64,000 bases of DNA from Amphiscolops sp. MND2022 (Eukaryota): positions 9,550,001-9,614,000 of the forward strand of contig OZ076409.1 in assembly GCA_964187785.1 (NCBI GenBank), read 5' to 3'. Under the pieces are notes generated by a model that was given only the letters and a program-made list of their open reading frames with translations, searched no databases and was not told where the DNA came from. Position 1 is the first letter of the stretch. Each line of letters begins with the position of its first letter. The position numbers and the translations under genes were made by a program. This document shows, piece by piece, positions 19,737 to 64,000 of this stretch.

Positions 19737-19752
19737 TAGAGACATCATTTTT

Positions 19753-32447: not shown

Positions 32448-32656
32448 TTTTTTTTGTTGTTTTCTCGTATTCTTAGTTAGTTAAGCTTAATGAGTTGACG
32501 AAGTATGAGTGTATTTCTTGCTTTACCTTACTTATCCTTATGTCATTAGTTCCGCTACCTGGTTACCTGTCTTTGGTACTGCCCCAATGTGATTTTATGT
32601 ATTGCACTGCAACTGATCAACACGCAGTCAACTTGCGCTCTTTCAGAGACTTGGTG

Positions 32657-39913: not shown

Positions 39914-40564
39914 TCATTTCTTCACAAATAATAGCCGCAGCTCCAATCGGTTTTCTGTTCCTGAAAGCCCTTTGTCGTAAGCGCGAGAATTCGTGCTTGT
40001 GAATCCGTCTTTGAGACGGTCGTTACCTTGCTTACTCTTAGAATTGTTCTTAGGTTCTAAGTTTTGCAGCACTTCGGAATATCCTTCCGGTCTCTCGGCC
40101 GGAACGTTCCATCTCTCTTTGGTCAATTGTCCCGATCCGGCCATAACTGCATTTTGGATTTGAGGTAAAATTTGGCTACTAATTGCTTCATTTATGGCTC
40201 TTTGGATCTGAACACTGACGCTATTCATCATTTCATCCATCTCTCGAGATATACGAGAATTTAACTCACTCGACAATCTATTGATCTCAACACTTGAACA
40301 CTCTCTGATTGAATTATGGCCTAATTCGGTATTTGGACTAGGTCCATTATTTTCCGGGTTTGGGAACTCATTCTCATTTTCTTCTCCAAACTCATCTCCG
40401 AATAAGCTTTCTGGCCTACCGGTCTGATTACTATTCACACTTTCATTTCTCTCATTTCTATCAAAATGATTTCTTCCGAGCATAATATCTAAATTCTCAA
40501 TGTCTGATAGCATATCTGCTTCTCTAGATTTCCTTGTTTTCTTCTGTTTTCTAGTGGTAGGCAT
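39914..40564 (-). CDS. Gag N-terminus copy in the 3' LTR reading through into host flank (216 aa)
   Basis: Near-identical to ORF 54822 up to NSRAYD, then continues in flanking DNA; expression unknown. Confidence 0.45.
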   Translation of the reverse strand: MPTTRKQKKTRKSREADMLSDIENLDIMLGRNHFDRNERNESVNSNQTGRPESLFGDEFGEENENEFPNPENNGPSPNTELGHNSIRECSSVEINRLSSELNSRISREMDEMMNSVSVQIQRAINEAISSQILPQIQNAVMAGSGQLTKERWNVPAERPEGYSEVLQNLEPKNNSKSKQGNDRLKDGFTSTNSRAYDKGLSGTENRLELRLLFVKK

Positions 40565-41713
40565 TTAGGAAGAAAGTCCGAGGTTAATATTGAATTAGTT
40601 CGGAAAACTGGTAATATCAATGAACTGAACGTTGTGAAAAGAAAGCAACTTGTGTCCCCTCAGGAAGGGGGTGTATATATATATATACCTCCTGAGGCAT
40701 GACACTCACATTTTCCACATATTATTGAAATGTTTACATGTTCTAAAGGGTCGTGAAATTTTACGAGTATTAAAAAATAGCTATTGCATCAAAGTGATTC
40801 AGGAATTTAGGGTCGGAAAAATTCCTGAGGAATGCACTCAATTACATACTCATGATAGCTTCAAAGTACGGGGGACGGTTTAGTCCGCATTCCCGTAACA
40901 GTTAACATCAAAGCAAATATATGTTCAGACACTTCAAAGTAATATTTGTGTCAACAGGTATGTGAGGTATCTAAGGCACGTGCCTGCACACGCAAGCTAA
41001 TTCATCAAGTAGCAACTCCAATTACATGCACTAATAAAAGGTGGATGTGGCCCAATTCGGCCATTTGACAAAGGATCCATTCAATTAAAGCGACCGGTTT
41101 AGTCCACCGGACTATTATTTAGAGTTTATGACTGGTGGTCACAAATACATCAATTAGGTTTAAATAGGCCCATTAGCACCTTCTAAGTACAAATATAATC
41201 TTACATGACTTTAAATAACATGCATACTCAAATTAAACAATTACACAAGCTAATAGTTGGAATGGCCTAATCCGGCCATTTGCCTTTGGTCCGCTTACAA
41301 AATAAGGTATAGCGTCAAGTGGCCGTATACGGCCAAACAAATATGATAGTATAATGCACAGCAGGATAGAGCGTTCTGATTGGCTAATGAAATGAGCTCA
41401 AGTGACGTCTCCGGAATTAGAGTTTCGTTCACTTGAACTCGTTTCCTTTAAGCTTTACACTTGCCTTTACTATATTACGTCACTGCTAAACAATCCATCA
41501 TATAAGCATAATCATCACCGTTTGAATTCTAACACGAGTATTAATCAGACTAATATACAATCCGAATACATAATGAATATAATAAAACAACAGTGAGTTT
41601 TACTAAAAGTTTTGAATAATTCTCTTAAAATGTGGGCAAAGTACCTGGTACGGCTTCTTGCTCGTTAGTAGTCGTTGTGATCCGTGTCCCATCGCAAGCG
41701 GCAGCCTGCGACA
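39973..41713 (-). repeat. 3' LTR of element 2
   Basis: Matches 54231-55971 with about nine substitutions seen by eye. Confidence 0.97.
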
Positions 41714-42390
41714 CTGCGGGTGCTAAGAAAAGAAGACTTCCGGCGTTTAGACCATTTTCGTAGGCTTCCCTCCTCAAGTTCGTTATATAAGCTGGTTCAT
41801 TGCGCGGCGTTGATCTACTCATGTACCAATTCACTTTCTCTTGTTTAATTTCGTCCACTGATCTCCCACAGACCATGCATCCACGGCCCAACTGTTTGCT
41901 AAGATCCGAATACGGCTGTACTTGTTGGATGTGGTAAGATGCGTGGAAACTGGTGCTAACTGGTTGTTCCATGAATACGTCTTGGGACGGCCCTCTCTTT
42001 TGCAAAAGAGAGTTTGTGTTGCAAAGTTCTATCCGGGTTCTTTCTGCCTTTCTCATCGGTGCATACAGAAGTTTCTCGTCAAATTGTTTGAATCCCAATT
42101 TCGGAGTCGAAGGCGGCCGCATTTGAAGATTACTCGGTCCAGCTGCTGATTCTGTATCTTGCTCCTCCACAGTCATCTTGCGGCCAGCGATTAAAATTGG
42201 GCTTGACTTGACTTCCCTCTCGATTCTCTCTATGATAGCCTCGGTGTCCGTGGACCAATCGGAATCCCATGAGGTAGATGAGTTGTTCTCCTCTTCGTCA
42301 CTCGATAGGTAGATGACTGAATTTACGGAGGCTTCTGAGTCCGATTCTTCTAAGTCGAAAAGCTTTCTTGCTAAGTTAAATTTAGACATT
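41625..42390 (-). CDS. accessory ORF of element 2 overlapping the 3' LTR (acidic/Ser-rich N-terminus, CMVC motif)
   Basis: Open frame 41625-42467 with first ATG at 42390; its last ~30 codons lie inside the LTR. Confidence 0.65.
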
Positions 42391-43398
42391 ATTATCTTTT
42401 TAGCAATTTTGTTGATTCGTAGGGCGACTTGTTGCTTGCAGGATTCAAAGTTGAATGAGATTGTCAAAATTCCCTTCAGGCCAACTTAGGCTGTTTCCCC
42501 GGAGTTCCATTTCGGCGGGAGAAACCATGATCAATCGTCCTGATCCGTCGTAAACTTTCTAGAATGGAATTTCTTGGCGGCTTATTTACCCTTTGAAATT
42601 CAGAATGGTGCCCCCCTTTCTCACTCTCTTAAGTGAGTATGTGGAGGGGTGTTAAGTTGACAACAACAAATAACTCCACTCCAAGTGGGTAATCAACACC
42701 AAGCTTGATAGCAATTAACGGCACTTGTCGGAAGAAACTCACCGAAATGGCTTCATTCAATCAAATTTGAGCTTCGATAAATTTGAAAAAGAATAATAAA
42801 GATGGCGGAAAATAATAATTTTGAATAACTAAAATGGCGAAAATCTAACTAAGGTAACTAGGAAAACTGAACAAAACGGCAACATGAATAGGGGTAAACG
42901 GCCATAATCGGCCACTAATTGTAACAAGGTTGTAAATAGCGAGATACGTTCTGTACATTTTGCTGGCAGACTCCGTGTACAGATTTAAATATGTAGATAA
43001 TCAAATAATATTAGTCTGGTAAATCTTCAGCCACGAACTCCAACTTTCAATTCTTTACCTAATTCCAATTCCTCTATCTTTGCAATTTTCCTCTCCTGGG
43101 ATCCTCCGCTGTTACGCTTCACGAACTTTGTTGCTGTTTCCTGATCTTCCGTCGTCGCCGTATTCGGCCTTTCTCCACAGACTCTCCCCTGTAGATTTAC
43201 GTCTCATCTTCCAAAAAGGAGCAGCTTCATGGCTTCAAAATCAGGTTGGTCTGGATTTTCTTTTAATAGTCTGAACAATTTTGACTTGATCAGAGACAAA
43301 ACTTGTTCACAAACGCTTCCTGTTTCCGTTTTGTTTCACATGTTTCGACTAAATAGCCAAACTGAAAGACACTTCTAGAAGTTTTCTAACGCGGTAAA

Positions 43399-46300
43399 AT
43401 GGATTTCTTCCGAGGAAGCATACCGCCTAATTTTATCTCCTTCCATTTAGGGAATGAAAATACCGAGGAAGGACAAACACCAGCCTCTGATTCCCACATC
43501 CAGTCTACACCGAATGTGATGCCATCTCCACCGCCATTTCCTCCCCTCAGAGCCCCCATCTCTCCCAGCAGTACTGACAGTAACGTCGATGTCACTGCAT
43601 ATGCTGAAGAAAGAGTCAGGGTTTACGAGCGTATTCAGGGCTTGACTTCAACTCCGAATATCGACTTAGCCGACAAAGTTCCCAAGAAGGTTGGTGAGTC
43701 TGAAGAAGCCAAGGAAAGAGAGCCAACAGAGGTCAGGGAGGGAGCTACCAGTATCTCACCCATCAATCCGATCCAAACTGATCCGATTTCCCCAAACATT
43801 CGTGCCAGTACCCCAACTCCAGGGGCTTCCAATATCCAGCAGGAAATGGATTTGACCCAGTTGGAAAGTGGCCTAAAGGTTGCTACTTCCTCCCGAACCA
43901 CGTTACCGGAATTACTACCAGCCGGACATTCTAACAATGAAACGTCTGCGGTTTCTTTCCTCCAGCACGAGACTGACGATAGTTCGTCCTTTTGTGATGC
44001 CCCAGAGCTTCCCCAAGGAGTAACCAAGGTGCGGTTCCTAGACGGGGGAACCGAGACAGAAGAGACAGGGGATGGGACGAGTCAGCTTAGCTGTCCCGAG
44101 TTATACAGCTTTATCCCTGCACCCCACAACCCAACATCGAGTGAAGAAGACACTCTTACTCATAGTCCCAAAGACCCAACTGCTGAGTCTAGGCCCGGTC
44201 CCTCTGGTCCATCTCACCCTGAATTGAGGGAGTTATCTGGACGGAGTAGGGCTATTTTGAAACAATATTTTGATGAAGATGCCACAACCGTCTCTCTTCC
44301 TCTAGGCCACCGGACTGTCGCTTTCACGGAGCCACAGGTTTATCACCTCCTCCGAGTTCTTACCGACGAGACGTTGCAAATGTCTTATACGACCATGGAA
44401 AAGATGGTGTTAGGTGCAGTCAGAGGAGCCCCAGTTACGGCCAAGTCTCGTACGGACCATTTCAAAATCAGGCGCAGGGCACAAACTCCTCATCCACGAG
44501 ACCTCAGTGATAGCAGCGATGGGTCGCAGAGTTACGACGATTTTGGCCCAAGTACGGATTCTGCCGGTGACCCCAATACTGAGAGCGAAGATGGGGTTTT
44601 CGATTCCCCCAACGAGACTGACAGTTCCGCGGAAATGGCCCTAATTTCTCAGGCTTTCAAAGAGCCTAACTTGGTTGAACCTGATCCGACCAGCCAAAGA
44701 ATAGTAGATGTCGGCCGTCAGAATGAAGGTCATGAGTCGACTGGGCAATCAAGCTTGGATGCAACATTGTCAGAGTTGCGTCACCAGGAAGTACCGCGTC
44801 CAAGCGAGACTCGTGAAGAATCCAAAAAGAAGCGTCGCGGGCCCACTAGAGGGGTCCCCATGAAGGAGGAATTCTTTGCGAAGATTGGGTGGACCCGATC
44901 TTTCATCTCTGGACCAGCCGACCCATTACACATTCCCCATATGGTCTGGTGCCATATTTGTAAGAAGAATTTTTCCGTGAAGACCAAAGGCACTCTGGAG
45001 ATCCTACGACATCACCGGACAGAAAAACACTTGCGCAAGGACCAGAGATGGCGTTATGAGCACCTAAAAAGCGTCCATCCTGTCACTGGTAAGGTGCAAC
45101 ACCGGGTGAGGGGCAGAAACGGCAAAGTTCTGACCAAGATAGAGCTGGCTAAAGAACTCCCTCTGTTCATACATGCCGAGTTGGTTGATATCGGGGAACG
45201 TTTCCCCTTTTACGACGATTTCGTCAAAGGAACAGCGACCACCCTCGTAACTCCAGCGTCTCGTGCCAAGACTCAGATTCACCTCATCGCAGATTTTGTG
45301 CAGCATCAGGAAGACCTTTCTATTTTACGGCGGATGTGGTCACAGGTCGGCTCCCTAACCAACTACCAAGCCAGCTACTGCGATTTTGACTGGAGTGAAG
45401 ATAGAGTCTCGGTTGGTAGTTTTGTTTTTTTCTTTTTACTATCGAGGTGCACTGTAAATATCCGATTTAATATTCCTATTTTCTTTTAAGGCGATCTTCC
45501 AGCACATCTTCAACTGTGCCATGGAGGACATGGCAGAACAAATAGCGGCAACACAGTGCTTTGGGCTTGAGTACGAACGGGTTGGAGTCAACAAGCTCAT
45601 GTCTGTGAGATTTTGGAAGGGAGACTCACTGTGTAGAGTCTTCGTTTGTCGAAGTGGGCTTCCTTCCACCGACTTGACAGGAGAATTGGGGTCCCTTTCC
45701 AGATTTCTCTCGGTCGTGTCTACCAAGGTTGACATAGTTGCTTGTTCCGGCTGCCCCGTTGAGCTGATTTGTACTATCGACAGATGTGCACTATTTCCAC
45801 GAGCAGTACAGAGCTGTTTTCGATTCGAACATTTGGATTTGCAGACCATGATGCGCAAACCTACTTACAGTGTGTTCGGCAGAATCGACTTTTTCTCCGT
45901 GTTGAAGAGCTTACTGGTGTCCTTAGGATCTGCTGCCGATGAGGATTGGGCCATGCAATCACCCGAATTACTTCAAGTTAGTATCTTCCCTTTCACACGT
46001 CGATAGTGTTAACTAGTACACAGGACTCACTGTTTAATAGTGGTCCATTTTGGGCTATTTCCACTTGCAAACTGAATTTGCCTGATCTCCCTGGTCTCTG
46101 TCGCGACTTGTCAAAAAACTGGAAAGCAGTGCGTTCCTTTCTGACTGCTCACACTCCACATCAAGGCATGCAAGGGGTTCACAATCAGGTAAGGATTCTC
46201 TTCGGGCCTTTTGAATTTCAATGAGTTGGTTTCCAAGTCAATGGGTTAATGGACCGGCGATATCGGTTGCATGTGACTTACTTAGATCATGTTACAGGTT

Positions 46301-47686
46301 CAGAGCTTTGAATGGTCCCTCATCTGCGACACCTTCTTTGTTGTGAAATTGGAATTCTTCCAACGTATTATCAGTGACTGTAAGTATACGGACCTTTTGG
46401 GTTTATCACTGCTCGCTTCTAGCTTCATATCCCAAACTCTTGAATCCTGGTAGGGCAGTAAGCCCTGTTTCCTCGGTTGGTCATTTAGGCATACGGTTGG
46501 GTTTTTTCATGTGACCGGTTGTGTTTCAGACGTGTCCAGTTTCGTTGTCAACCTTCAAGGCAGACGAGATGCTACTTTCTTCCTTTGTGGGGAAGTCTGC
46601 CGATTCATCTCTAAGTTGTGCTCCCGTTGTTATCTGCCTGAAACGATCCCTGTCGAGAAAGATTGGTTCCTCTTGCTTGGTTTCGCCGTCGGTGAAGGCA
46701 AATTCCTTACTGAGGAGGACTTCCTGGTTCGACTGCGCTTGGTGAACAAAGTAGCGACTGCAAGTAAACAGAGTGCTGAAATCGTCCACTTGAATAAGAA
46801 GTCTGAGAAGGCTGCAATTGAGAAGACGGCGGATGAGGCAACTTCCAGTTTTGCCAGGGAAGGCCTCCACTTCGTACAGTATCTCTTGAAGGAGGTTCTC
46901 AATCAGGCTGGATTACGATCAGAGATTGTGAAGGGGTTGGCAGCTTTCGACCCTTTCATTTTATTCAAAAGACCTTCAGAAGTCGGCCTTCGTCACTTCG
47001 ATTTGTTATACGCTACCTTCCAACATCGGTCTTGGGTCTCATCTGCCAACGAGGATGCTTGCCGGGAGGAGTACATTGCCCTATTGGACCATCTTCGAGT
47101 GAGCTACCCCCCTGACTTCGATCTCCTAGAGAATTCCAAGGACCTCATCGACTTCATTATGGGACTAGAGTTCTTCCAGACTCATGAACATTTGCTCTAT
47201 TTGTTCAAATTGTGTTGTCTGTGTTTGACTAGTTCCAGTCCTCAGTATCCTCCTGTGTTATTTGGGAGTGTAGACACCACTGGATATCGTGGGCGCTTTA
47301 CTGATTTGGTCCTGCCTTGTCAAAGTTATCTTTCCTCCGTTCCTGATTCCATCTCTGGTTGCGTAACCGATGCCAATTTGGATAAATTTTCGCATCTCAG
47401 TGCCACCTTCGAACAGTCTGCCTTTGGTGCCGATTATGACCCGTGGACGTATGTTGATGTGTTTGGGCGATCCAAAATTTATAAGAGCTTATTGGCTTCA
47501 TATAAGCTCACTACATCCATCTCTGTTGCCCGCTCAGTTCGCTTGGAGGAGAGGAGTGTTTCATCCGTCCCCGATGAGTCTGCCCTGAAGATTCCTTCTA
47601 AGTTGCGAAGAAAAAGGCAGGGTAGCAACAGCTCAAGTCTTTCCTCAAGTTCTAAGAAGCCTGTCCAAGGTTCCTCTAAAGACTAG
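43399..47686 (+). CDS. antisense spliced accessory gene of element 2, ~1300 aa, BED-like zinc finger plus hAT-transposase-like region
   Basis: Exons 43399-45411, 45491-45976, 46024-46188, 46298-46379 and 46530-47686 join in frame through four GT-AG introns (3903 nt). Zinc finger WCHICKKNFSV..EILRHHRTEKH. Confidence 0.8.
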
Positions 47687-47901
47687 TATGTACATATGTA
47701 TTTATGTACGTTTTGAAACTGTAAACTTTTGTTCATTCTCTTAATGTTGTTGTATTTGTTTCTTTCTGATCCCATATTTATTCTCTTCTCCGAGGGGTCT
47801 TCTAGATGTCCCGCTATTTACTCAAAAGATACTAAAGGGGCCGAAAAAATGAAACTAAAAAATGAAGGAAAAGAGCTCCCATTTTCGGGAAAATTCAATT
47901 C

Positions 47902-50900
47902 TTAGTATCTGAAGTCTTCTGAGTAGTTCGGATTAGGGTTAGGCCTGAGATTATATTTCCCTCCTCTAGGGCTCAGACTTTCATTTCTAGCATCGTTTTC
48001 AGATATTTCGGGCACGATAATATCATCCCCCCTTTTCGGAGATTTTTGTGCATCGACTTCTGTTCTAAAATTTTCATCGGGTAAAATTTCTTTGTCTTTC
48101 AGGCTGTCTGCCGTATCCGGCAAAGATTTTTCACGGCTTTTTGGGGAAATGGCCGGATTCGGCCAATCAAGTTCTTCATTTCTAGACTGTTCATTAGCTT
48201 CATTTCTTGTAGTGACGTCATCAATTAATCGTTCATTCCGGCTATGCGACGCTCGGTCGGCAAGATTTGATTTATCACTCGTGATTACATAATCCACTTC
48301 ATTCTCGTGTGCGTCACTCGTATTCGGCTGCTCCGCATTCGGTTGTTCGCCATTCGGTACGCTAGTCGGAATAGTCTCGTTGTCTCGTGTAACTAGCTGC
48401 TCTCCAAAATCTGTTTCCCACGTTATGACGTATAGGTCATCTTGCGGAATGACAATTTCTTCGTCTGGCTGCAGACGTTGTTCTCGGAAATTGTCTTCAA
48501 GCGGTTGATTGGGAATAAATTTTTTAAGGCGAATGCGATGCAAAATTTGAGTTTTGTTCGTATTGATCCTTCGTACTATGTAGTTTTGATTTGGCAAAAC
48601 CTTTTGGACTACAAATGGTCCAACCCAGCGGTAATCGCGGAATGGAATTTTTGATCCTTGATGATCCGCTTTCGGCTGTAAAACGAAACAGTCATCATTC
48701 TCCTTCAATGGAGCAGCTTTTGCTTTGCGGTCGTAATATTCTTTGTACTTGATGTACGACTGCATAATGTTCTGTTTCGTTTTATCAATTAGGATTTTTG
48801 TCCGGTTTTGGATTTCTTCAGCAAATTCGGTTGTGGGGTTAATCTGCTCATTTGGATTATTTCCAAGTTTGTGATCCAAGATATTAAATGGAATTCTTCC
48901 ATGGAATACTCTCGTCGGTTCACAACCGATGCTGGCGTGATAGCTATTATTATGATTCAGTACTGCTAATGGCAAGTATTTGTGCCATTGTCGGCGATAT
49001 TCTCCACATGCCATTTTGAGATTTGTTTTCAATGAGGCATGAGTTCGCTCCAATTTTCCAATTGTCTGCGGGTGTTTCGTCGTGGCGCATTTGAGTGTAA
49101 TGCCCAAAATCTGCGTAATTTCCGCGATTATTGTAGAAGTAAATGCAGTACCTTTGTCGGTGATAAGAGTCGTTGGTAGATATGAGTGTTTAGTCATTAT
49201 ATCAATGAGCGCTTTTGCCACGTTGATAGCTGATGCGTCCGTGAGAGGGTAAGCAAATAAATATCTGGAGAAAACATCAATTGCCGTTAGGACATTTTCA
49301 TACCCTCCACTTGGGGGAAGATTCGGCAATAGGTCAATCTGCATGGCGTCTTCAGGTCCAAGGTCCCATTCGGGCAAGTTGAGCAGCTCAGGTGTGATCG
49401 TTGCGTTAGGGACTCTCTTGTCTCTGGCACATTGTTCACACCCTTCTACCCACTTTTTGACGTGTTTAGCCATGCTAGGGTAGTAATACCTCTGTCTAAT
49501 TTCCTGTAGCATTTTTGAAATCCCGGGGTGTTTATGCGCTGTCCCGTGAAGGGATTGAAGCAATTCCCGGAGTAAGTGTTGCGGGAGTAGAATTTGATGG
49601 TATTTAACATTCCCTGTTTCATCAAAATATTGCCTCGTCAGGATTTCGTCCTTGAGTACGATTCGTTCCAGATTATTTGCATAGTGTCTATATCGAGTAT
49701 CCTGTTGCAGTATGTTTTCTGAATAGTCTTCATGAAGGAGTTTTGCCTTCAATTGTTGTAATACTGTATCTTTGGATTGCTCAATAATGATCTGGTTCGT
49801 TTTCCTCAATCGGACTTGTATATCGGGGTGTTGCTTGACCAGATTTGTTGACAGAGTTTGTATAGTAATAGTGGGCTCATCAGTTGCTGGATTTTTCCTG
49901 ATTGCTTCTTTTCTTGCCCAATACTGTTCCTCTGTCTCATCGTCATCATTGGTGTAGAAGATTTGTTCTTCTTGCGACACCCCTGCGGATTGGACATTGA
50001 TTTCGATTGGTAGTGTTTGTACATCTTCACGAATTTTCATTACTAATTTGTCCTTCGGATCTGCTTCCAATCGGGACAAGTAGTCGGCAGCTGTATTTTG
50101 TGCCCCTGGGATGTGTGCTATGACAAAATTGAACTGAATGACATAATCACACGCGTTCCACAGGGCTGGGGGTATTATTTTTGTTTGGAAAAATCTCGTG
50201 ACTGCTTTGTTGTCGGTAAGGATGATGACTGGTTTCGGCGCACCCCAGAATATATGTCCGAATTCTTTAAATGCAAAATAAATTGCAAGGAATTCCTTTG
50301 CGTAAATTGACATCTTTATCTGTGCTGGGGTGAAAGTTTTCGATCCGTATGCGACTGGAGCATACGATTTCCTGAGTGACGTGAATTTCTGGTTCGGGTC
50401 ATCTTCAATTAAGACCGCGTATCCGGCTGCACCAAAACTTGCGTCAGTCATTAGTGCTATTTGCTTGTTCGGAATGGGTTGCTGTAGGGCTAAGTCGCAA
50501 CATTTGTCTAGCGCTCTATTGATTTCTTCGAATTGTTGGACTAATTCTTTCGATACTAGGACCTTTTCGTCACTTTTGAGCATCTTGTAGAATGGAGCAA
50601 GGCGTTCGGAGAGTCTTGGGACATAATTCCTGTAGTAGTTCAGGAATCCCAAGTAGCGCTGCAAAGCCTTTTTCGACTTTGGGAATTTGGTCTTTTCCAG
50701 AAAGTTTTGCACGTTCTGTTTCTGGGGTTTGACGCCTTGCGGGGTAATAGTCCGTCCGAGAAAATCAATTTCTTTTGCACCGAAGTGACATTTGTGCATT
50801 GTCAACTTAAGGCCTGCTTCCTGAATGCATTTGAATGTTGCTCTCAGGTTCGTCATGAGGTGGTCGACATCATTGGCTGCGATGCCGATATCGTCCACAT

Positions 50901-53103
50901 ACTGGGCGCACTGATCCGCTTTAATGACTTTGTCGAGGTATTCCCTCATGAAACTCGAGAATGCGGATAGTGACCGACTAAGGCCTTGTGCTAAGCGTCT
51001 GTAAGCGAATGTGCGACTGGCAAAATTGAAAGCCAGCATTTCGATTGAACGTTGGTCAGCCATTGGTAGGCAGTGGTATGCCTGCGAACAGTCTAATTTA
51101 CAGAACAGTTTTTTGCCTGCCAAGTGTTGGGCAGCATCAACCAGGGTGCTAACAGGGTGATTATTGTTTATATAATCATCCGAGATGAGGTTGTTGATTT
51201 TCCTCAAGTCAACCAGGAGTCGTAGCTTCCCATTTGGTTTCTTTTGGGCGAATATTGGGCTTGCATACTTTGAGAACGGCAGTCTAGTTATTATGCCATA
51301 TTTATGTAACATGGCTAATTCGACGAGGATGTCTTCCTTCAAATTGATAGGGGCCGGAAGACTTTGACTATAGGCTGGGGAATCATCTTTAGGTGTCAGT
51401 TTCACCTTGAAGTCTTCGTTCATGCCTATATCAAATCGGTGTCGTGCAAAGATGTCATGGAATTCCACTAACAATTCCTCTATTTTCTCCTTCTCTTCAG
51501 GAGTAAGGGTGTAATCTTTCCAATCGAAATTTTTTAAGAACTTTGTACGTGATTCTTCATCTTGAGTAGGGTCAAGTGTCTCGAGGTCTTGTAAGGCCTG
51601 TAATTCCTGGAGGATTCGTTTTTGTATCGGCGTATGTTCCTCAGGATTTCCAGGATTTTCTGTGGTTGGGAACCAGTAATTTTCAGAGTTTTGTGGATTT
51701 CTATTAGTTTTGATGAGACTGCTGACATAGTGGGCTGCCTGCTCTTGATCATTCTGTAAGAGATGCCAGGTTGATGCCGGGTCCACCGGTTTGACATATT
51801 TCATTTGTTCTGGCGTCATAACAGAGAAATTGGCAATATGGAGTCCCTTTTTGAGTTTATAGGTGTGGTCTGTGAAATTATTCACAGGTATCGATATGTT
51901 GCCATCATTCAGAGTGACCAAAGCTGGGCAAAATGTGATGTCGCCTTCTTCATGTAGAAGGTCGCTCGGTTGTAAAATCCCGGTGACAGCATTCTCAGGG
52001 TACAGTAGGGAATTTGTCCTAATTAGGACTCTGTCATTTGGAGGAATGGTTATCTCAATGGGATTGAGAATTGGTTCTAGTACATTTGAATGTTTATGAT
52101 CAGCTGTTTTGAGCTGCATTGAAAAGAATGGGAAGTTTAGTATTCCTTGTCTCATGTCCAGAACTGTATGATTTCGTTGAAGGAACATTAGTCCAATGAT
52201 CGGACCTGTCAGGTGTTCCATGACTATGAAAATCTCGTGAAACTCGATGTCACCAACTTCAAATTTGAGCTCTATGGTACTCTTGGGAGTTTCCAATTGC
52301 CCATTAGCGACCATTATTTGGAAATTCGGAGGCGGGCCTTCCCGGATAACAGATTGTGGAGATAAAAGTCGGATTTTCCGGAGGTCCATTTCAGGAATTG
52401 CACTGGACAGCGCTCCAGTGTCGATGAGTCCATCAATGGTCAATTCCCCAAAGTCCATTGGGAAATACAACATGCGTTTCTTGCATTTGAGATTGATGTT
52501 GGTTGACAAAGGTATACAGTCTGGTTCGCCGTCCCTTGTGATTAGGACATTTTGGAATTGTTTCTCATCTAGTAGTGATTGCTGTATGGGTTCAGTATTG
52601 TTGTCATGGTTCTCGGTCCCCAATGGGTTTGGGAACACTGGGTGGTTCGTGCCATCATTCATTTGCCAGTTTTCAATTAATGCTCTGGTCTTCTTATTGT
52701 GGGTGATGGGAGGATTCTCGTGGACTGATTGATTGTAATGTTCGATATCATCTAGAACGTACTGGAATTGCAGTAAATCTTGGTTGTAAATCTCGGTGTC
52801 CCAATAGGGATCTCTGCCGTAGTCTGGGTCGATGTACGTTGGATTGTAATTATCTACCAGGGGAATGGGCCTGAACCGGGTAGTGAAGGTAGTGGTATAG
52901 TCAGGGTCCCAAACAGGAATTGGTTTTTGGAATAAATGAGTGTTGTTATAGGTGATGGTGGTAGCCTTGTCCATCTGTTGCTGCCAGACAACAGAGGGAT
53001 AGCCCATCAATTGCTGATTGTATTGGTGGAAAGTTTGCGTTGGAGGATCCGACCTGATGTATTGGCGGACGGATATCAGTTCGTTGTATTGGAGTCGTGG
53101 CAA
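47902..53103 (-). CDS. pol: Pol of element 2 (protease, RT, RNase H, integrase), intact 1733-aa frame
   Basis: LIDTGA; LAQG..YVDD; TDAS; H..H..CEQC with QID/TDKG/LERTH; WVGPF. Confidence 0.96.
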   Translation of the reverse strand: MPRLQYNELISVRQYIRSDPPTQTFHQYNQQLMGYPSVVWQQQMDKATTITYNNTHLFQKPIPVWDPDYTTTFTTRFRPIPLVDNYNPTYIDPDYGRDPYWDTEIYNQDLLQFQYVLDDIEHYNQSVHENPPITHNKKTRALIENWQMNDGTNHPVFPNPLGTENHDNNTEPIQQSLLDEKQFQNVLITRDGEPDCIPLSTNINLKCKKRMLYFPMDFGELTIDGLIDTGALSSAIPEMDLRKIRLLSPQSVIREGPPPNFQIMVANGQLETPKSTIELKFEVGDIEFHEIFIVMEHLTGPIIGLMFLQRNHTVLDMRQGILNFPFFSMQLKTADHKHSNVLEPILNPIEITIPPNDRVLIRTNSLLYPENAVTGILQPSDLLHEEGDITFCPALVTLNDGNISIPVNNFTDHTYKLKKGLHIANFSVMTPEQMKYVKPVDPASTWHLLQNDQEQAAHYVSSLIKTNRNPQNSENYWFPTTENPGNPEEHTPIQKRILQELQALQDLETLDPTQDEESRTKFLKNFDWKDYTLTPEEKEKIEELLVEFHDIFARHRFDIGMNEDFKVKLTPKDDSPAYSQSLPAPINLKEDILVELAMLHKYGIITRLPFSKYASPIFAQKKPNGKLRLLVDLRKINNLISDDYINNNHPVSTLVDAAQHLAGKKLFCKLDCSQAYHCLPMADQRSIEMLAFNFASRTFAYRRLAQGLSRSLSAFSSFMREYLDKVIKADQCAQYVDDIGIAANDVDHLMTNLRATFKCIQEAGLKLTMHKCHFGAKEIDFLGRTITPQGVKPQKQNVQNFLEKTKFPKSKKALQRYLGFLNYYRNYVPRLSERLAPFYKMLKSDEKVLVSKELVQQFEEINRALDKCCDLALQQPIPNKQIALMTDASFGAAGYAVLIEDDPNQKFTSLRKSYAPVAYGSKTFTPAQIKMSIYAKEFLAIYFAFKEFGHIFWGAPKPVIILTDNKAVTRFFQTKIIPPALWNACDYVIQFNFVIAHIPGAQNTAADYLSRLEADPKDKLVMKIREDVQTLPIEINVQSAGVSQEEQIFYTNDDDETEEQYWARKEAIRKNPATDEPTITIQTLSTNLVKQHPDIQVRLRKTNQIIIEQSKDTVLQQLKAKLLHEDYSENILQQDTRYRHYANNLERIVLKDEILTRQYFDETGNVKYHQILLPQHLLRELLQSLHGTAHKHPGISKMLQEIRQRYYYPSMAKHVKKWVEGCEQCARDKRVPNATITPELLNLPEWDLGPEDAMQIDLLPNLPPSGGYENVLTAIDVFSRYLFAYPLTDASAINVAKALIDIMTKHSYLPTTLITDKGTAFTSTIIAEITQILGITLKCATTKHPQTIGKLERTHASLKTNLKMACGEYRRQWHKYLPLAVLNHNNSYHASIGCEPTRVFHGRIPFNILDHKLGNNPNEQINPTTEFAEEIQNRTKILIDKTKQNIMQSYIKYKEYYDRKAKAAPLKENDDCFVLQPKADHQGSKIPFRDYRWVGPFVVQKVLPNQNYIVRRINTNKTQILHRIRLKKFIPNQPLEDNFREQRLQPDEEIVIPQDDLYVITWETDFGEQLVTRDNETIPTSVPNGEQPNAEQPNTSDAHENEVDYVITSDKSNLADRASHSRNERLIDDVTTRNEANEQSRNEELDWPNPAISPKSREKSLPDTADSLKDKEILPDENFRTEVDAQKSPKRGDDIIVPEISENDARNESLSPRGGKYNLRPNPNPNYSEDFRY

Positions 53104-53105
53104 AG

Positions 53106-54822
53106 TTAGTTTTTTGACTCATCATTAGAAGATGAGGATTGTGAGTTTGAAGATGTTGACTTGTTTTGCGGTTTCTGCGCCTTTGAATTGGGCTTTCCGT
53201 CATTGGCGTCATCTGGTCTGGTGCGTTTGGGTTTGAGATGCGCACCGGCGCCTTGCCAACATCTTTCTTCGGGGTGGTTCTTTTTACCACAAGTACCACA
53301 CTCCGGATACGTCTTTTTCTGAGTCTGTTTGCCTTGTTGGGCATCTTTTTCCTTTTTCTTTTTGAGTTTTTCGCAGTCCTTTACCATGTGGCCCTTTTCC
53401 TTGCAATAATTGCAGGTAATGTCTGACATTTGCCCAGTGGACAGAGGAGTTTTGGGCTTAGTCGATGAGGAGGTCATTGTTGCTATTGGTAGATCGTCTG
53501 ACTCCTCGAGGGCGTTAAGCTCTAATTCTCTCTCCAAATGAGCAACTATCTCATCGTATGAGCCATTTTCTAATCTGGCCATGTTAACAGACCGCTTCAG
53601 TTTCGGTGGCAGTTTTGCGTAAAGCAAACTGTCAATCATCTTTTGTGCTTGATCCCCGAATGCTTTTTCTGCCCCTTGATTTAGTTCTTCAAGGAAATCT
53701 GGCAGTTTCATCGTGTTGGGATCAAAGACTAGACGGTGCCATTTATGTTTGGCAGTTGCCTGTGATTCGGGTTTGACGTATTTTCGTCTGAATATTATCA
53801 ATACGTCTTCTAAAGTCTGTCTATTGCTCGAGCTGATGTTCCGGAAGGTTTGGAGAGCATTCTTCCTCAGCAGTGAGTGGAAGTGATTGATTTTCATCTG
53901 TTCCGTCATTTCCGGTTGCATCTTGATCATCGTGTGGAATAGGTCCTCAAACAGCTCGAATTTTTCACTCTTGCCATCAAAGTCATTGTGTTTGAATTGA
54001 CTGGGCGTATAGTGAGTTGTTGGGCTGTCGGCCTATTCTGCATCGTTGTCAAGACATCTGCTAGTCGAGTAATAGGTCAGTTTGAGCAGCCTGAGCATTT
54101 CTCTCTTGCGCTGGGATCGTCGTGTCAAGGTTAATATCCTCATAGGACCTGTCGAGATGGTTTCTGGATGAGATTCGTCCCGTGAGAAACTCAGGAACTT
54201 CGATTGGAGATTCGTTTTCTCCTGTCACCATGTCGTAAGCGCGAGAATTCGTGCTTGTGAATCCGTCTTTGAGACGGTCGTTACCTTGCTTACTCTTAGA
54301 ATTGTTCCTAGGTTCTAAGTTTTGCAGCACTTCGGAATATCCTTCCGGTCTCTCGGCCGGAACGTTCCATCTCTCTTTGGTCAATTGTCCCGATCCGGCC
54401 ATAACTGCATTTTGGATTTGAGGTAAAATTTGGCTACTAATGGCTTCATTTATGGCTCTTTGGATCTGAACACTGACGCTATTCATCATTTCATCCATCT
54501 CTCGAGATATACGAGAATTTAACTCACTCGACAATCTATTGATCTCAACACTTGAACACTCTCTGATTGAATTATGGCCTAATTCGGTATTTGGACTAGG
54601 TCCATTATTTTCCGGGTTTGGGAACTCATTCTCATTTTCTTCTCCCAACTCATCTCCGAATAAGCTTTCTGGCCTACCGGTCCGATTACTATTCACACTT
54701 TCATTTCTCTCATTTCTATCAAAATGATTTCTTCCGAGCATAATATCTAAATTCTCAATGTCTGATAGCATATCTGCTTCTCTAGATTTCCTTGTTTTCT
54801 TCTGTTTTCTAGTGGTAGGCAT
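53106..54822 (-). CDS. gag: Gag of element 2 (two apparent 1-nt homopolymer deletions near 54075 and 53980)
   Basis: Restoring one C and one T joins ORFs 54061-54822 and 53106-53930 via DPITRLADVLTTMQNRPTAQQLTIRPVNSNTMTFDGKSEKFELFEDLF. Zinc knuckles CNYCKEKGHMVKDC and CGTCGKKNHPEERC. Confidence 0.88.
53109..53115 (-). promoter_or_regulatory. -1 ribosomal frameshift slippery site A AAA AAC at the gag/pol junction
   Basis: Heptamer sits directly before the gag TAA and pol is in the -1 frame. Confidence 0.8.
54213..54230 (-). promoter_or_regulatory. primer-binding site of element 2, embedded in gag coding sequence
   Basis: TGGTGACAGGAG.. directly after the LTR-terminal CA; cognate tRNA not assigned. 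Confidence 0.65.
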
Positions 54823-55971
54823 TTAGGAAGAAAGTCCGAGGTTAATATTGAATTAGTTCGGAAAACTGGTAATATCAATGAACTGAACGTTGTGAAAAGA
54901 AAGCAACTTGTGTCCCCTCAGGAAGGGGGTGTATATATATATATACCTCCTGAGGCATGACACTCACATTTTCCACATATTATTGAAATGTTTACATGTT
55001 CTAAAGGGTCGTGAAATTTTACGAGTATTAAAAAATAGCTATTGCATCAAAGTGATTCATGAATTTAGGGTCGGAAAAATTCCTGAGGAATGCACTCAAT
55101 TACATACTCATGATAGCTTCAAAGTACGGGGGACGGTTTAGTCCGCATTCCCGTAACAGTTAACATCAAAGCAAATATATGTTCAGACACTTCAAAGTAA
55201 TATTTGTGTCAACAGGTATGTGAGGTATCTAAGGCACGTGCCTGCACACGCAAGCTAATTCATCAAGTAGCAACTCCAATTACATGCACTAATAAAAGGT
55301 GGATGTGGCCCAATTCGGCCATTTGACAAAGGATCCAGCCAATTAAAGCGACCGGTTTAGTCCACCGGACTATTATTTAGAGTTTATGACTGGTGGTCAC
55401 AAATACATCAATTAGGTTTAAATAGGCCCATTAGCACCTTCTAAGTACAAATATAATCTTACATGACTTTAAATAACATGCATACTCAAATTAAACAATT
55501 AAACAAGCTAATAGTTGGAATGGCCTAATCCGGCCATTTGCCTTTGGTCCGCTTACAAAATAAGGTATAGCGTCAAGTGGCCGTATACGGCCAAACAAAT
55601 ATGATAGTATAATGCACAGCAGGATAGAGCGTTCTGATTGGCTAATGAAATGAGCTCAAGTGACGTCTCCGGAATTAGAGTTTCGTTCACTTGAACTCGT
55701 TTCCTTTAAGCTTTACACTTGCCTTTACTATATTACGTCACTGCTAAACAATCCATCATATAAGCATAATCATCACCGTTTGAATTCTAACACGAGTATT
55801 AATCAGACTAATATACAATCCGAATACATAATGAATATAATAGAACAACAGTGAGTTTTACTAAAAGTTTTGAATAATTCTCTTAAAATGTGGGCAAAGT
55901 ACCTGGTACGGCTTCTTGCTCGTTAGTAGTCGTTGTGATCCGTGTCCCATCGCAAGCGGCAGCCTGCGACA
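54231..55971 (-). repeat. 5' LTR of element 2, containing the gag start codon (54822)
   Basis: Followed immediately on the minus strand by TGGTGACAGG (PBS-like). Confidence 0.97.
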
Positions 55972-56071
55972 CCCTTTACCTAATTTTTCAAATGCATATT
56001 AGTTAGGTCGCGAGTTGGCGCCACTTGTTGGGATGAAAGCGTCACCCCGGCGGCGCCGGGCCTTACAAATA

Positions 56072-58685
<2,614 letters not shown>

Positions 58686-60246: not shown

Positions 60247-60747
60247 TTATCTCCTACTGCAGCCAAGATGCTCGTGAGCCAGGAGTACAGTATAACTGGG
60301 CCACAAGCGATAAAAGATCAACCTCAAGATTTCCAAGGAGGATTGGAACAGATTTCTCAAGTTTCCGTCGTCAGAGGAGGCGTTGGAAGACCTAAAGAGC
60401 TTTTTGTTGGAGTATTCACTTCTACTGAAGTCAATTTCTTCTACTTCATCAGCGGAGTTTCCGTTATTTGCGACTCTATTGGTCAAACAACCACGTTCTG
60501 AACTCGTGCTAGACAAGTTGTCCACTTTTGATGACAAGTTCTCAATCAGTTTTAGAATTTCCCGCTGGTTCAATTCAGTATCTCTAAGACGTTTTGAAAT
60601 TTTATTTTCGATTTTATTGGAAATGTCCTCAAAGTCTCTATCAGACAGTAGGGTGTTTTCGTCATTAGTTGAACTCGCTACCTCTTCGTCCACCTGGCTA
60701 GTTGACTGGTCAATTCTGAGTTTTCGTTTCTGAGACCTTTCCGGCAT
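60247..60747 (-). CDS. Gag-like N-terminus (coiled coil) in the putative LTR of element 3, reading into flank
   Basis: MPERSQKRKLR..ISNKIENKISKRL; the inferred LTR end falls at ..EYSN|, as for ..AYD| in element 2. Confidence 0.5.
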   Translation of the reverse strand: MPERSQKRKLRIDQSTSQVDEEVASSTNDENTLLSDRDFEDISNKIENKISKRLRDTELNQREILKLIENLSSKVDNLSSTSSERGCLTNRVANNGNSADEVEEIDFSRSEYSNKKLFRSSNASSDDGNLRNLFQSSLEILRLIFYRLWPSYTVLLAHEHLGCSRR

Positions 60748-62324
60748 AATTTTAAAAATACCAGTTGATAATACTCAATTGAATTGGATGACAATATTAG
60801 TAACCGAGGTTGGTCGGTCAGCTGGTCAATCAACCAAAATCAAATACAATTAGTATCAAACACGTGGAGGGTCCGCAAAATTCAAGATTAAAATTGAATA
60901 CAATTTCAAAGAGCGAATAACAAATGATTACAAAGTTGAAAATTAATATCTGTCCTTTCCTAATCCCGCTTCAGGTACATATACTTTACGCTAGACACGC
61001 GGGGAAAACCCCGCGCGTGAATTCACACCTCGTTCAACTCGGCGTGTTTTCCAAGACGAGAAAATCCAAATAAGGTAGGCTTCCTCGGGATTCGGCATTC
61101 GGCTTCATCCTGCTTTCAAGTGAAAGCGGGAATCACTTCCTGCCGCTTCCCAATTCCGCGTCCCTTTCTTCTTCATTTCCCGCCTTTTCAAGACGCCGAG
61201 TCAAAGTTGGCACTGAAAATTCATGAACCTAGCTACTGAGGCGGGAAAAGGAACTGATTTTACATCGAAGAAATTAGTACTAACTGAAATAAATTGCACT
61301 AAATTGGAAAATGGATTTCAGGCAATATTAATCTCACAAAATGATCAATTTTATGGAGTAATCCACTGATTAAAATTCTGGTCGAATACCAGGACGACCT
61401 ATCAGCTTGGATTTCCGGAACACATGACAGGACATTGAACACCATAAACTAGCACAGGGAGGGGGGTTTAACACAACTTTAATGGCTACAGAAAGTATTA
61501 TATGCCATTCAAACAATAATAGATCAGAACAAATTGATAATTAACACTTAACACAATTTGGTTAATCTTTTACTCGTACTCAACCAAAACGGTTGCCCTG
61601 GTGGTCGTCCCGGGGTGGAGTATTAGCAACACGGTAATATTTGAACAAAACACTGCACGATGAACGAAATAATGCTTTGGTGGGAGAATTAGACCAAATT
61701 TGTTATATTAATTAAGTTACACTAATGATTAATGCACATTAATATTGGTTATAATAGATAGGTTATCCCGGTGGTTGTCCCATTTTGGGAAGAAGATTTG
61801 GACGGCCAGGCGGTTGACCTGAACAATAAATCAAATACTTTCATCGTTTAGGTACTTCAACATTTCCATCGGTTATTTATTGGTGGTTAGAGCATCTTTT
61901 AAGTTCCGTGTTCATATTGAAATGGTACAGCATTTATGTAGTAATAATACTGCTTCGGTTATTTGAAGCGTGTGGCCAGGCGTGCGTCCCAGCACTCGAT
62001 TGACTGGTGAGCCGCCTGGTATCGCTGTTCAGCTAGCGCGGTGTATTTGCACTAATCGCTGATTGGTCCGATGAAAATGGAATGATATTATTCTGCTAAA
62101 GCTCCGTTGTTATTGTAGCGGTAAATTGATTAGCGTGCTGGCCGAGTTAATTTCGGTCGGTATGCTGTTCGTTTTACTGTAAACAAATTGCACTGAAAGC
62201 ACTTTAATATTATTTAAGTATTTACATATTTATGTATTTTAGGTACTGCGCTGAATTAACAATGTTTGTTGGATGGTTTAATAGGATTGTTTGTTAATCG
62301 TTTCTTTCAGGTTCAGTGATGTTC

Positions 62325-62957: not shown

Positions 62958-63237
62958 TGTATTACTGATGCGAGTAATCGGTTAATGTAATAAGGATGCT
63001 GATTGCGAATGAATGCTGAGCGACCGTCTCAGGAATAGCTGAATAATTGAATGATAATTATATTCTTTAGAGTTGTTCACGCCGCTTGCGTAGTTGGGAA
63101 AGTTTTCAGCTGGCAGACTGATTGACTTCCATTACGTCATATTAATAGATTATGATAATAATATTAGCGTTGGTTTTACGCAACGTCTTCGACTTTTGGT
63201 ATCAGGTTTGAGTTTATTTCAGATTTGAGTGTTTATT

Positions 63238-63928: not shown

Positions 63929-64000
63929 GTGGGTATTTCTTTCTTCCTCTAGCATTATATAAATACCTTGGCTGTGCTCGTTCGAATGATTGTTTCTGCT

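What the first reader, a model, noticed from the sequence alone, without database searches (positions are those of the whole stretch)
39973..55971. Complex LTR retrotransposon with both inner LTR boundaries crossed by ORFs and a divergent accessory gene pair
Seen: an intact-looking, TSD-flanked Ty3/gypsy element. Gag begins inside the 5' LTR, an accessory ORF ends inside the 3' LTR, and ~6 kb between pol and the 3' LTR holds two divergently oriented genes, one antisense and spliced. A much-diverged element at 60405-64000 appears to repeat this layout. Inference: this is a conserved lineage architecture comparable in complexity to complex retroviruses (HIV nef overlapping U3, HTLV-1 antisense HBZ), not a one-off capture. 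I do not recognise it as a described family.
Basis: partly seen in the sequence, partly recalled or inferred. Interest (0 to 1): 0.92.

Follow-up and report, generated by a model that had tools for sequence, protein, structure and literature searches.

The report
Gypsy retrotransposon clade with accessory genes
This is one copy of an abundant 16-kb gypsy-type jumping gene of an animal genome that, besides gag and pol, carries two conserved extra genes, one of them a spliced gene on the opposite strand that looks like a tamed DNA-transposase.

Summary
A 16-kb Ty3/gypsy element lies on the minus strand at 39973-55971, with 1741-bp LTRs (9 mismatches) and a 5-bp TSD. Gag starts 592 nt inside the 5' LTR. 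A 254-aa sense ORF ends 89 nt inside the 3' LTR. The 6.2 kb between pol and the 3' LTR holds a five-exon antisense gene of about 1290 aa.

The layout is a lineage trait, not a one-off capture:
- 10 of 10 fetched copies are collinear.
- Two subfamilies share the layout, as do two diverged neighbour elements (pol 54% identical).

All ORFs show purifying selection (dN/dS mostly 0.02-0.4).

The antisense protein has a conserved zinc finger, an RNase H-like domain whose best structural matches are Hermes transposase, and a helical C-terminal domain. It is probably hAT-transposase-derived. Pfam and profile comparisons are negative, so this rests on fold and language-model evidence only.

The window copy is not intact: gag is split by two frameshifts, and one intron acceptor is lost.

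Antisense accessory ORFs are known in plant and fungal gypsy elements. I found no description of this animal, spliced, transposase-like version. I rate it a new variant of a known kind.

The parts
39968..39972 (.). Target-site duplication CCCTT (left)
   Evidence: Identical 5 nt on both flanks. 10 of 11 copies examined have perfect 5-bp TSDs, each with a different sequence.
39973..41713 (-). 3' LTR (1741 bp)
   Evidence: 99.48% identical to 54231-55971. TG..CA ends in element sense.
41625..42389 (-). Sense accessory ORF, 254 aa here. Its last 89 nt lie in U3 of the 3' LTR.
   Evidence: ORF. No Pfam match. dN/dS is 0.17-0.42 against 8 copies and about 0.8-1.0 against the 2 nearest. The frame is open in 8 of 10 other copies. 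The window copy is 27 nt shorter than all 10. It is 60-62% identical in two subfamilies.
42390..43398 (.). 1-kb spacer between the divergent accessory genes; inferred site of the internal promoter(s)
   Evidence: Position only. No RNA data. Inference.
43399..45411 (+). Antisense gene exon 1 (671 codons). The N-terminal ~510 aa are rich in S/P/E/T. The zinc finger C-x2-C-x15-H-x5-H is encoded at about 44950-45030.
   Evidence: ORF. 193 database homologues, none named. The finger motif is in 111 of 120 listed homologues. dN/dS is 0.10-0.24 against 9 of 10 copies.
45491..45976 (+). Antisense gene exon 2 (162 codons): N-terminal half of an RNase H-like domain
46054..46188 (+). Antisense gene exon 3 (45 codons). 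The preceding acceptor is AG in 10 of 10 other copies and GG in the window copy.
46298..46379 (+). Antisense gene exon 4 (27 codons + 1 nt)
   Evidence: tblastx conservation against two subfamily copies (72-90% aa). GT..AG sites with matching phase.
46530..47686 (+). Antisense gene exon 5 (2 nt + 384 codons + stop): helical C-terminal domain
47902..53118 (-). pol (1738 codons from stop to stop): protease, RT, RNase H, integrase
   Evidence: Pfam RVT_1 6.7e-23, Integrase_H2C2, RT_RNaseH, rve, Integrase_p58_C. The frame is open here and in 3 of 10 other copies.
53109..53115 (-). A_AAA_AAC slippery heptamer directly before the gag stop (53106-53108); pol is in the -1 frame
   Evidence: Invariant in 11 copies and 2 subfamily copies. 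The same heptamer stands two codons before the gag stop in the diverged neighbour.
53106..54822 (-). gag. One 572-aa ORF in 7 of 10 other copies; split here into 54822-54061 and 53930-53106.
   Evidence: Weak zf-CCHC, 19.3 bits against a cut-off of 20.8. dN/dS is 0.08-0.33 for the LTR-borne part and <=0.26 for the rest.
54219..54230 (-). Primer-binding site TGGTGACAGGAG, complementary to the 3' end of tRNA-Leu(CAA)
   Evidence: Invariant in 11 copies. The same PBS is in the neighbour element. The tRNA gene was identified in L038.
54231..55971 (-). 5' LTR. A TATA-like box sits at LTR position 1027 (window about 54939-54945), 123 nt upstream of the gag ATG.
   Evidence: The promoter role is inferred.
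55972..55976 (.). Target-site duplication CCCTT (right)
60405..64000 (-). 3' part of a second, diverged element of the same architecture: 3' LTR 60405-62416, sense ORF 62981-62328 ending 89 nt inside the LTR, and the start of the antisense gene from about 63229 (+)
   Evidence: The rest was read from the genome beyond the window end (L033, L034).

Best explanation
This is one slightly damaged copy of a high-copy, recently active Ty3/gypsy LTR retrotransposon family of an animal genome. Its lineage has a fixed four-gene plan.

Shown or read from sequence:
- Gag starts in the LTR (R/U5) and is read across the tRNA-Leu(CAA) primer site.
- Pol lies in the -1 frame behind a conserved A_AAA_AAC slippery site.
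- Integration makes 5-bp duplications.

Two accessory genes fill the 6.2 kb between pol and the 3' LTR:
- A fast-evolving acidic, Ser-rich sense ORF that overlaps U3.
- A divergently placed five-exon gene on the opposite strand.

Inferred:
- The antisense gene is transcribed from an internal promoter in the 1-kb spacer.
- Its introns survive retrotransposition because they are antisense in the genomic RNA.
- Its ~1290-aa product has a disordered N-terminal half, a BED-like zinc finger, an RNase H-like domain and a helical C-terminal domain. I read it as a transposase-derived (hAT-like), probably catalytically inactive, sequence-specific DNA-binding factor. The element would need it for its own propagation, either to control its transcription or to direct nuclear or chromatin steps of integration.

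Selection on both accessory genes shows that they serve the element. The cassette and the gag-pol module have been reshuffled between lineages by recombination.
For: Architecture is conserved:
- 10 of 10 fetched copies are collinear at 92.6-99.3% identity.
- 18 LTR pairs (window included) are about 14.27 kb apart among 40 scored LTR matches out of 5177 first-look candidates.
- Two subfamily copies and two neighbouring diverged elements have the same order.

Recent mobility:
- LTR pairs are 98.68-99.94% identical.
- TSDs are perfect in 10 of 11 copies.

The accessory genes are functional:
- dN/dS against the window is 0.02-0.29 for exons 2 and 5 (one near-identical copy gives 0.89 for exon 5), 0.10-0.24 for exon 1 in 9 of 10 copies, and 0.17-0.42 for the sense ORF in 8 of 10 copies.
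- Omega is <0.1 for the antisense exons against the subfamilies even though dS is saturated.
- Under the exon model, 5 of 11 copies have an intact antisense CDS with all sites GT..AG.
- Most of the 106 and 52 scored genomic matches to exon 5 and to the intronless form have no stops.

Exon model.

hAT-like nature:
- The finger motif is in 111 of 120 homologues.
- The exon-2 model has RNase H topology. Hermes is the Foldseek top hit (E 0.038, prob 0.98) and fills the top 6 VIA rows, with model 1-111 matching Hermes 149-268.
- The exon-5 model aligns to Hermes 361-609, collinear with the exon-2 match.
- Language-model neighbours of the intronless 872-aa form are hAT clusters (Dimer_Tnp_hAT, DUF4371, FAM200-ZBED5) at 0.90-0.93. 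Neighbours of the finger region are BED and CGGBP1-like at 0.87-0.90.

Recombination: between the window family and the subfamilies, pol and gag dS is 0.46-0.69, while dS of the antisense exons is >2 or saturated.
Against: Expression:
- No RNA evidence. No RNA run was listed, so promoter, splicing and expression are unproven.

Sequence methods do not support hAT:
- No Pfam family matches any exon, the 872-aa form, or 35 homologues.
- No PDB sequence match.
- hhalign of the exon-5 and exon-2 profiles against bona fide hAT ORFs of the same genome gave probabilities of 0.03% and 0.5%. Those hAT profiles were thin (4 and 3 sequences).

Structural matches are modest:
- No Foldseek hit at E<=1e-3.
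- Atlas shared features are 158 of 256, under the 170 typical of true family members.

Other:
- No DDE triad is recognisable. The residue after strand b4 is a near-invariant Ser. This is my reading by eye against a recalled motif.
- The window copy itself has a broken gag and a lost acceptor.
- The sense ORFs and LTR-borne gag N-termini of the two lineages share no detectable similarity. Their homology rests on position only.
- No purine-rich tract adjoins the 3' LTR in this family.
Confidence: 0.6

Rival explanations
1. The cassette is a passenger: an old nested DNA transposon or captured gene that was copied along with the element and does nothing for it.
For: Nested insertions are common. 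The protein looks transposase-like. The genome holds many true hAT elements (150 scored Dimer_Tnp_hAT matches).
Against: A neutral passenger should drift, but dN/dS is 0.02-0.3 within the family and <0.1 across subfamilies with saturated dS. The reading frame and the four splice sites are kept in 5 of 11 copies. The gene is present in lineages whose pol is only 54% identical. No convincing terminal inverted repeats flank the gene: the best flanking pairs are 18 nt at 83% and 13 nt at 92%, among 59 chance-level pairs.
Confidence: 0.07
2. The antisense protein is an active nuclease or transposase. It would give the element a second, DNA-level activity, such as target-site cleavage, excision or recombination, rather than acting as a DNA-binding regulator.
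For: RNase H-like fold. Two near-invariant acidic residues (E27, E29) lie on strand b1.
Against: The position after b4, where DDE enzymes carry the second Asp, is a near-invariant Ser (my reading). No 8-bp TSD or inverted repeats. All 10 perfect TSDs are the 5-bp integrase type.
Confidence: 0.12
3. What matters is antisense transcription itself: double-stranded RNA or small-RNA-based copy-number control against the convergent pol transcript. The protein would be secondary.
For: The antisense gene converges on pol with only 215 nt between the stop codons (47686 and 47902). A review of plant elements raises this role (PMC7264820, text read).
Against: RNA-only function does not explain strong selection on amino-acid sequence, an invariant zinc-finger motif (111 of 120), or conserved frame and splice phases.
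Confidence: 0.1
4. The LTR-borne ORF is not the start of gag. It would be a separate upstream ORF, or chance, and gag would start downstream of the primer site.
For: In the window copy the two pieces are separate ORFs. The N-terminal parts of the two lineages are not detectably similar.
Against: One continuous 572-aa ORF runs from the LTR ATG in 7 of 10 other copies. dN/dS of the LTR-borne part is 0.08-0.33. The diverged neighbour also has one 481-codon frame opening about 370 nt inside its 5' LTR, first ATG about 343 nt. A 36%-identical homologue lies elsewhere in the window.
Confidence: 0.08

Closest known systems
Plant Ty3/gypsy Tat/Retand-type elements with antisense additional ORFs (maize Grande gene23, rice RIRE2, Silene Retand, Phaseolus PvRetro13) and fungal Boty. 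Sources: PMC7264820, text read; PMC11963269, abstract only.
   Same: A long pol-to-3'LTR region with an ORF antisense to gag-pol. The ORF is present in most copies and conserved like the other genes. In Grande it is driven by its own promoter. Its function is unknown, and a nuclear or DNA-binding role is suspected.
   Different: The host is an animal. The gene has five exons and about 1290 codons. The protein is a BED-like finger plus an RNase H-like domain, not the TRP28/Transposase_28 domain. A second, sense accessory ORF overlaps U3. Gag starts in the LTR. No sequence similarity to the plant ORFs was tested.
Complex retroviruses: HTLV-1 HBZ (antisense gene) and HIV nef (3' ORF overlapping U3). 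The retroviral details are recalled; HTLV antisense transcription is also mentioned in PMC7264820.
   Same: One accessory gene on the opposite strand and one sense ORF running into U3 of the 3' LTR. Both are accessory to gag-pol.
   Different: No env. The antisense promoter is inferred to be internal, not in the 3' LTR. The proteins are unrelated. There is no evidence of infectivity. The resemblance is one of layout only.
Host-domesticated hAT transposases (ZBED family, GTF2IRD2, FAM200, CGGBP1). These are the names of the nearest language-model clusters; their biology is recalled.
   Same: A zinc finger followed by an RNase H-like domain and a helical C-terminal part. The catalytic triad is not evident. 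The likely role is DNA-binding regulator.
   Different: Here the gene is carried by, and selected within, a retrotransposon with thousands of candidate copies, not a single host locus. No Pfam or profile match to hAT families.
Yeast Ty1, whose GAG ORF starts in the 5' LTR and spans the primer-binding site (recalled, not checked in a paper)
   Same: Gag initiation lies inside the LTR, and the primer site lies within the coding sequence.
   Different: Ty1 is a copia-type element with a short overlap. Here 592 nt (197 codons) of gag lie in a 1.7-kb LTR of a gypsy-type element.

Membership tests
Ty3/gypsy (Metaviridae) LTR retrotransposon | pol domain order protease - RT - RNase H - integrase | tested here: met
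   Pfam hits lie in this order along the 1701-aa ORF.
Ty3/gypsy (Metaviridae) LTR retrotransposon | Direct LTRs with TG..CA ends, a short TSD, and a tRNA primer-binding site next to the 5' LTR | tested here: met
Ty3/gypsy (Metaviridae) LTR retrotransposon | Gag with CCHC zinc knuckle | tested here: inconclusive
   zf-CCHC scores 19.3 bits, below the 20.8 cut-off.
Ty3/gypsy (Metaviridae) LTR retrotransposon | Placement of the RT in a named clade (GyDB/Repbase phylogeny) | not testable with these tools
   No reference RT set is on hand. No chromodomain was found by Pfam.
hAT transposase superfamily (for the antisense protein) | N-terminal BED-type zinc finger | tested here: inconclusive
   C-x2-C-x15-H-x5-H is conserved in 111 of 120 homologues. 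The nearest Atlas clusters are zf-BED at 0.87-0.89. Pfam zf-BED does not match.
hAT transposase superfamily (for the antisense protein) | RNase H-like catalytic domain interrupted by an all-helical insertion domain | tested here: inconclusive
hAT transposase superfamily (for the antisense protein) | DDE catalytic triad | tested here: inconclusive
   Near-invariant E27/E29 on b1 and Ser after b4. This was read by eye without a residue-level structural alignment.
hAT transposase superfamily (for the antisense protein) | C-terminal hAT dimerisation domain (Pfam PF05699) or other hAT sequence families | tested here: not met
   No Pfam match at E<=1 or 10. hhalign against hAT ORFs of the same genome gave probabilities of 0.03% and 0.5%.
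hAT transposase superfamily (for the antisense protein) | Terminal inverted repeats and 8-bp TSD around the gene (a hAT transposon as such) | tested here: not met
   Only short, chance-level inverted pairs flank the gene. The unit that moves has LTRs and a 5-bp TSD.
LTR retrotransposons with conserved antisense additional ORF (aORF-3R of PMC7264820) | An ORF between pol and the 3' LTR, antisense, present in all or most copies and conserved like gag-pol | tested here: met

The most novel reading that the evidence does not exclude
A deep and very abundant clade of animal Ty3/gypsy retrotransposons has taken over a DNA-transposase (hAT-like) gene as an indispensable, intron-bearing antisense accessory gene, together with a nef-like 3' ORF. 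It exchanges this accessory cassette as a module between lineages. That would make it a 'complex retrotransposon' in which one class of mobile element has domesticated the enzyme of another. Introns of the antisense gene differ between lineages (four introns versus none), so the clade would also give a natural system for intron gain or loss inside a retroelement.
Probability: 0.4. Interest if true: 0.8.

Novelty: new variant of a known kind. Interest (0 to 1): 0.68.

Why it matters
LTR retrotransposons are usually treated as gag-pol machines. Conserved accessory genes are documented mainly in plants, and no function has been proven for them. This animal clade offers several things:

- Thousands of candidate copies, and several lineages side by side.
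- Clear selection on two accessory genes.
- A recognisable fold for one of them.

If the antisense protein is a transposase-derived DNA-binding factor, it shows that retrotransposons can domesticate genes of other mobile elements, as hosts do. It would also give a tractable protein with which to ask what antisense accessory genes do.

The discordant ages of the cassette and gag-pol point to modular recombination like that of retroviruses. The presence or absence of introns between lineages bears on how introns are gained or lost.

Tried and rejected
RNA evidence
- The look-up of sequencing runs listed no RNA holder.

Sequence annotation of the accessory proteins
- Pfam found nothing at default or relaxed thresholds.
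- PDB sequence searches found nothing.
- A 'longer' search for a fused full-length annotated protein found none.

Fold searches
- Foldseek found nothing at E<=1e-3 for either model.

Alignments and profile comparisons
- Alignment A2 (fragments against the 872-aa ORF) was badly misaligned and was discarded.
- hhalign against local hAT ORFs was negative.
- DUF4371 had no match in this genome at E<=1e-10, so no Buster/Charlie-type comparison set could be built.

Corrections made along the way
- My first exon-3 start (46024, giving a 47-nt intron) was wrong. It was corrected to 46054 after all 10 other copies showed TAG at 46051-46053.
- tblastn at E 1e-3 found no similarity to the element's proteins inside 55972-64000. 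The second element was proven only after reading 18 kb beyond the window.

Host taxon
- Nuclear-receptor domains are present.
- WRKY, arthropod cuticle and C1-set domains had no hits (weak negatives). The host is an animal; the phylum was not determined.

Other
- ARAGORN without introns missed the tRNA. Rfam gave nothing useful.
- Earlier findings of this scan: nothing to show.

Full report
**What is there**

The window lies in a 1.07-Gb assembly of 1929 contigs. The host is an animal. Nuclear-receptor ligand-binding domains are present (10 matches). No WRKY, arthropod-cuticle or C1-set domains were found (weak negatives).

A 16.0-kb LTR element lies on the minus strand between 39973 and 55971.
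- The two LTRs (39973-41713, 54231-55971) align over 1742 nt with 9 mismatches and no gaps.
- They end TG...CA in element sense and are flanked by the 5-bp duplication CCCTT.
- The 1738-codon pol frame (47902-53118) carries protease, RT, RNase H and integrase domains in the Ty3/gypsy order.
- Directly inside the 5' LTR lies TGGTGACAGGAG. It is invariant in 11 copies and complementary to the 3' end of an intron-containing tRNA-Leu(CAA) gene of this genome.

**Gag and the LTR**

The gag ATG at 54822 is LTR position 1150 of 1741, 123 nt downstream of the only TATA-like box in the LTR. So 592 nt of gag lie in the LTR, and the primer site is inside the coding sequence.

In the window copy gag is two ORFs of 253 and 274 aa. 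Relative to all 10 other copies it lacks one base at about 54074 and one at about 53981. In 7 of those 10 copies, a single 572-aa ORF runs from the LTR ATG to the stop at 53106-53108.

The LTR-borne part is coding. dN/dS is 0.08-0.33. The diverged neighbour element has one 481-codon open frame that likewise opens inside its 5' LTR.

Pol is in the -1 frame. The heptamer A_AAA_AAC stands directly before the gag stop. It is invariant in 11 copies and two subfamily copies, and it is present again in the neighbour element. Frameshifting itself is inferred.

**The cassette**

Between the pol stop (47902) and the 3' LTR (41713) are 6188 bp.

The minus strand holds a 254-aa ORF (42389-41625). It is acidic and Ser-rich, has no Pfam match, and its last 89 nt lie in U3.

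The plus strand holds a gene that I model as five exons, about 1290 aa:
- 43399-45411
- 45491-45976
- 46054-46188
- 46298-46379
- 46530-47686

Support for the model:
- All four introns are GT..AG and the phases fit.
- The recurrent length-changing differences among the 10 copies fall in introns (45426, 46394, 46502), while indels in exons are private to single copies.
- Small exons 3 and 4 are the frames conserved against two subfamily copies.
- All 10 other copies have TAG at 46051-46053, which is exactly the intron-2 acceptor.
- The spliced model aligns over 754 residues (24.1% identity) to an intronless 872-aa ORF of the neighbour element, with no gap at any of the four junctions.

Under this model 5 of 11 copies have an intact CDS with canonical sites. 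The window copy keeps the frame but has GG at the intron-2 acceptor.

No RNA run was listed, so transcription and splicing are inferred.

**A lineage trait, not a capture**

The LTR finds 40 scored matches (93-100% identical) out of 5177 first-look candidates. These form 18 pairs, the window's included, spaced about 14.27 kb.

Ten copies were fetched.
- All are collinear over the full length at 92.6-99.3% identity.
- Their LTR pairs are 98.68-99.94% identical.
- 10 of the 11 copies examined (these ten plus the window's own) have perfect 5-bp TSDs of different sequence.

Two subfamily copies have the same order.

Reading 18 kb beyond the window showed that the LTR at 60405-62416 pairs with a second LTR 13.65 kb on (97.8%, TSD CTTTT, same primer site). 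That element has the same plan:
- a sense ORF ending 89 nt inside its 3' LTR;
- an antisense gene 23-27% identical to ours;
- pol 54% identical;
- gag 39% identical.

A third element with the same order begins next to it.

In public protein collections, exon 1 has 193 relatives, exon 2 has 177, and exon 5 has 430 library representatives. All are unnamed ORF-sized predictions.

**Selection and recombination**

dN/dS against the window copy:

| Region | dN/dS |
|---|---|
| Antisense exon 1 | 0.10-0.24 (9 of 10 copies; 0.71 for the nearest copy) |
| Antisense exon 2 | 0.02-0.29 |
| Antisense exon 5 | 0.08-0.29 (0.89 for the nearest copy) |
| Sense ORF | 0.17-0.42 (8 of 10 copies; 0.84 and 1.03 for the two nearest) |
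| pol | 0.07-0.26 (0.66 for the nearest copy) |

A gene that did nothing for the element would drift, so both accessory genes serve its propagation. This is inference from standard transposon population logic.

Against the two subfamilies, pol and gag are 92-97% identical with dS 0.46-0.69. The antisense exons are 69-78% identical with dS above 2 or saturated, and omega stays below 0.1. The cassette therefore split much earlier than gag-pol, which points to recombination between lineages.

**What the antisense protein is**

- The first ~510 residues are S/P/E/T-rich.
- A C-x2-C-x15-H-x5-H finger follows, present in 111 of 120 listed homologues.
- The language-model neighbours of the intronless form are hAT clusters at 0.90-0.93.

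Against this:
- No Pfam or PDB sequence match.
- Negative profile comparisons with thin profiles of local hAT ORFs.
- No recognisable DDE triad.
- No flanking inverted repeats.

I put hAT derivation at about 0.6, and a non-catalytic DNA-binding accessory role at about 0.4.

**Comparison with what is known**

Antisense ORFs between pol and the 3' LTR are described for plant elements (Grande, RIRE2, Retand, PvRetro13) and for fungal Boty. They are conserved in most copies, they have their own promoter in Grande, and their function is unknown (PMC7264820, text read; PMC11963269, abstract).

This case differs in several ways:
- The host is an animal.
- The gene is multi-exon and about 1290 codons.
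- The fold is transposase-like.
- There is a second ORF overlapping U3.
- The gag start lies in the LTR.

Five full-text searches found no description of such an animal family. I read passages of PMC8220671 and PMC9040795, and neither describes such a family. The other papers I saw only in the listings. Repbase and Dfam could not be searched.

**Verdict**

The element is a new variant of a known kind.

Noticed in passing
L033:603-3218 (genome just beyond the window end) versus window 43399-47686: The antisense gene has four introns in the window's lineage. In the neighbouring lineage the homologous 872 codons are one uninterrupted ORF. Some database homologues have exon 1+2 or exon 2+3 in one frame. 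Introns have therefore been gained or lost inside a retrotransposon-borne gene.
   Followed up: partly
window 41714-41770 (minus strand): No purine-rich tract adjoins the 3' LTR in this family. The sequence is ...TCTTCTTTTCTTAGCACCCGCAG|TG, conserved in 11 copies and one subfamily copy. The diverged neighbour has AAAGCGGGGGAC at the same place. How plus-strand synthesis is primed is unclear.
   Followed up: partly
window 19003-38718: Another LTR element, about 19.7 kb on the plus strand. Its 734-bp LTRs are 99.86% identical. Its pol at about 25928-30058 is only 24-26% identical to this element's pol.
   Followed up: no
window 5111-11489: Tandem arrays with roughly 89-bp register lie at 6183-7146 and 8039-11489. 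A ~2-kb duplicated block (5111-7146 and 6964-9006, 92%) holds plus-strand ORFs 36% identical to the LTR-borne N-terminus of gag (5632-6108, 7488-7964).
   Followed up: no
window 56072-58700: A 1.19-kb unit is duplicated in tandem at near 100% identity immediately right of the element. Each copy ends in a long CT microsatellite.
   Followed up: no
G000:C8:35.58-35.64 Mb (L038): A large tandem array, about 296-bp spacing, of intron-containing tRNA-Leu(CAA) genes. This is the tRNA whose 3' end matches the element's primer site. There are 1027 pattern matches genome-wide.
   Followed up: partly
G000:C5:62879249-62898486: Three LTR copies at spacings of 3206 and 14290 bp: a rearranged or recombinant copy of the family.
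   Followed up: no
L029+L030 (G000:C9:18355282-18375281): In this subfamily copy, the self-comparison shows only 927 bp of LTR at 100% identity, although gene positions imply LTRs of about 1.95 kb. A tandem array lies just outside the 5' LTR. This is unexplained and may be an assembly effect.
   Followed up: no
beyond the window end, 67672-73103 in window-extended coordinates (L033/L034): In the neighbour element, pol is in two overlapping frames of 540 and 1293 codons. This could be damage or a second programmed frameshift.
   Followed up: no
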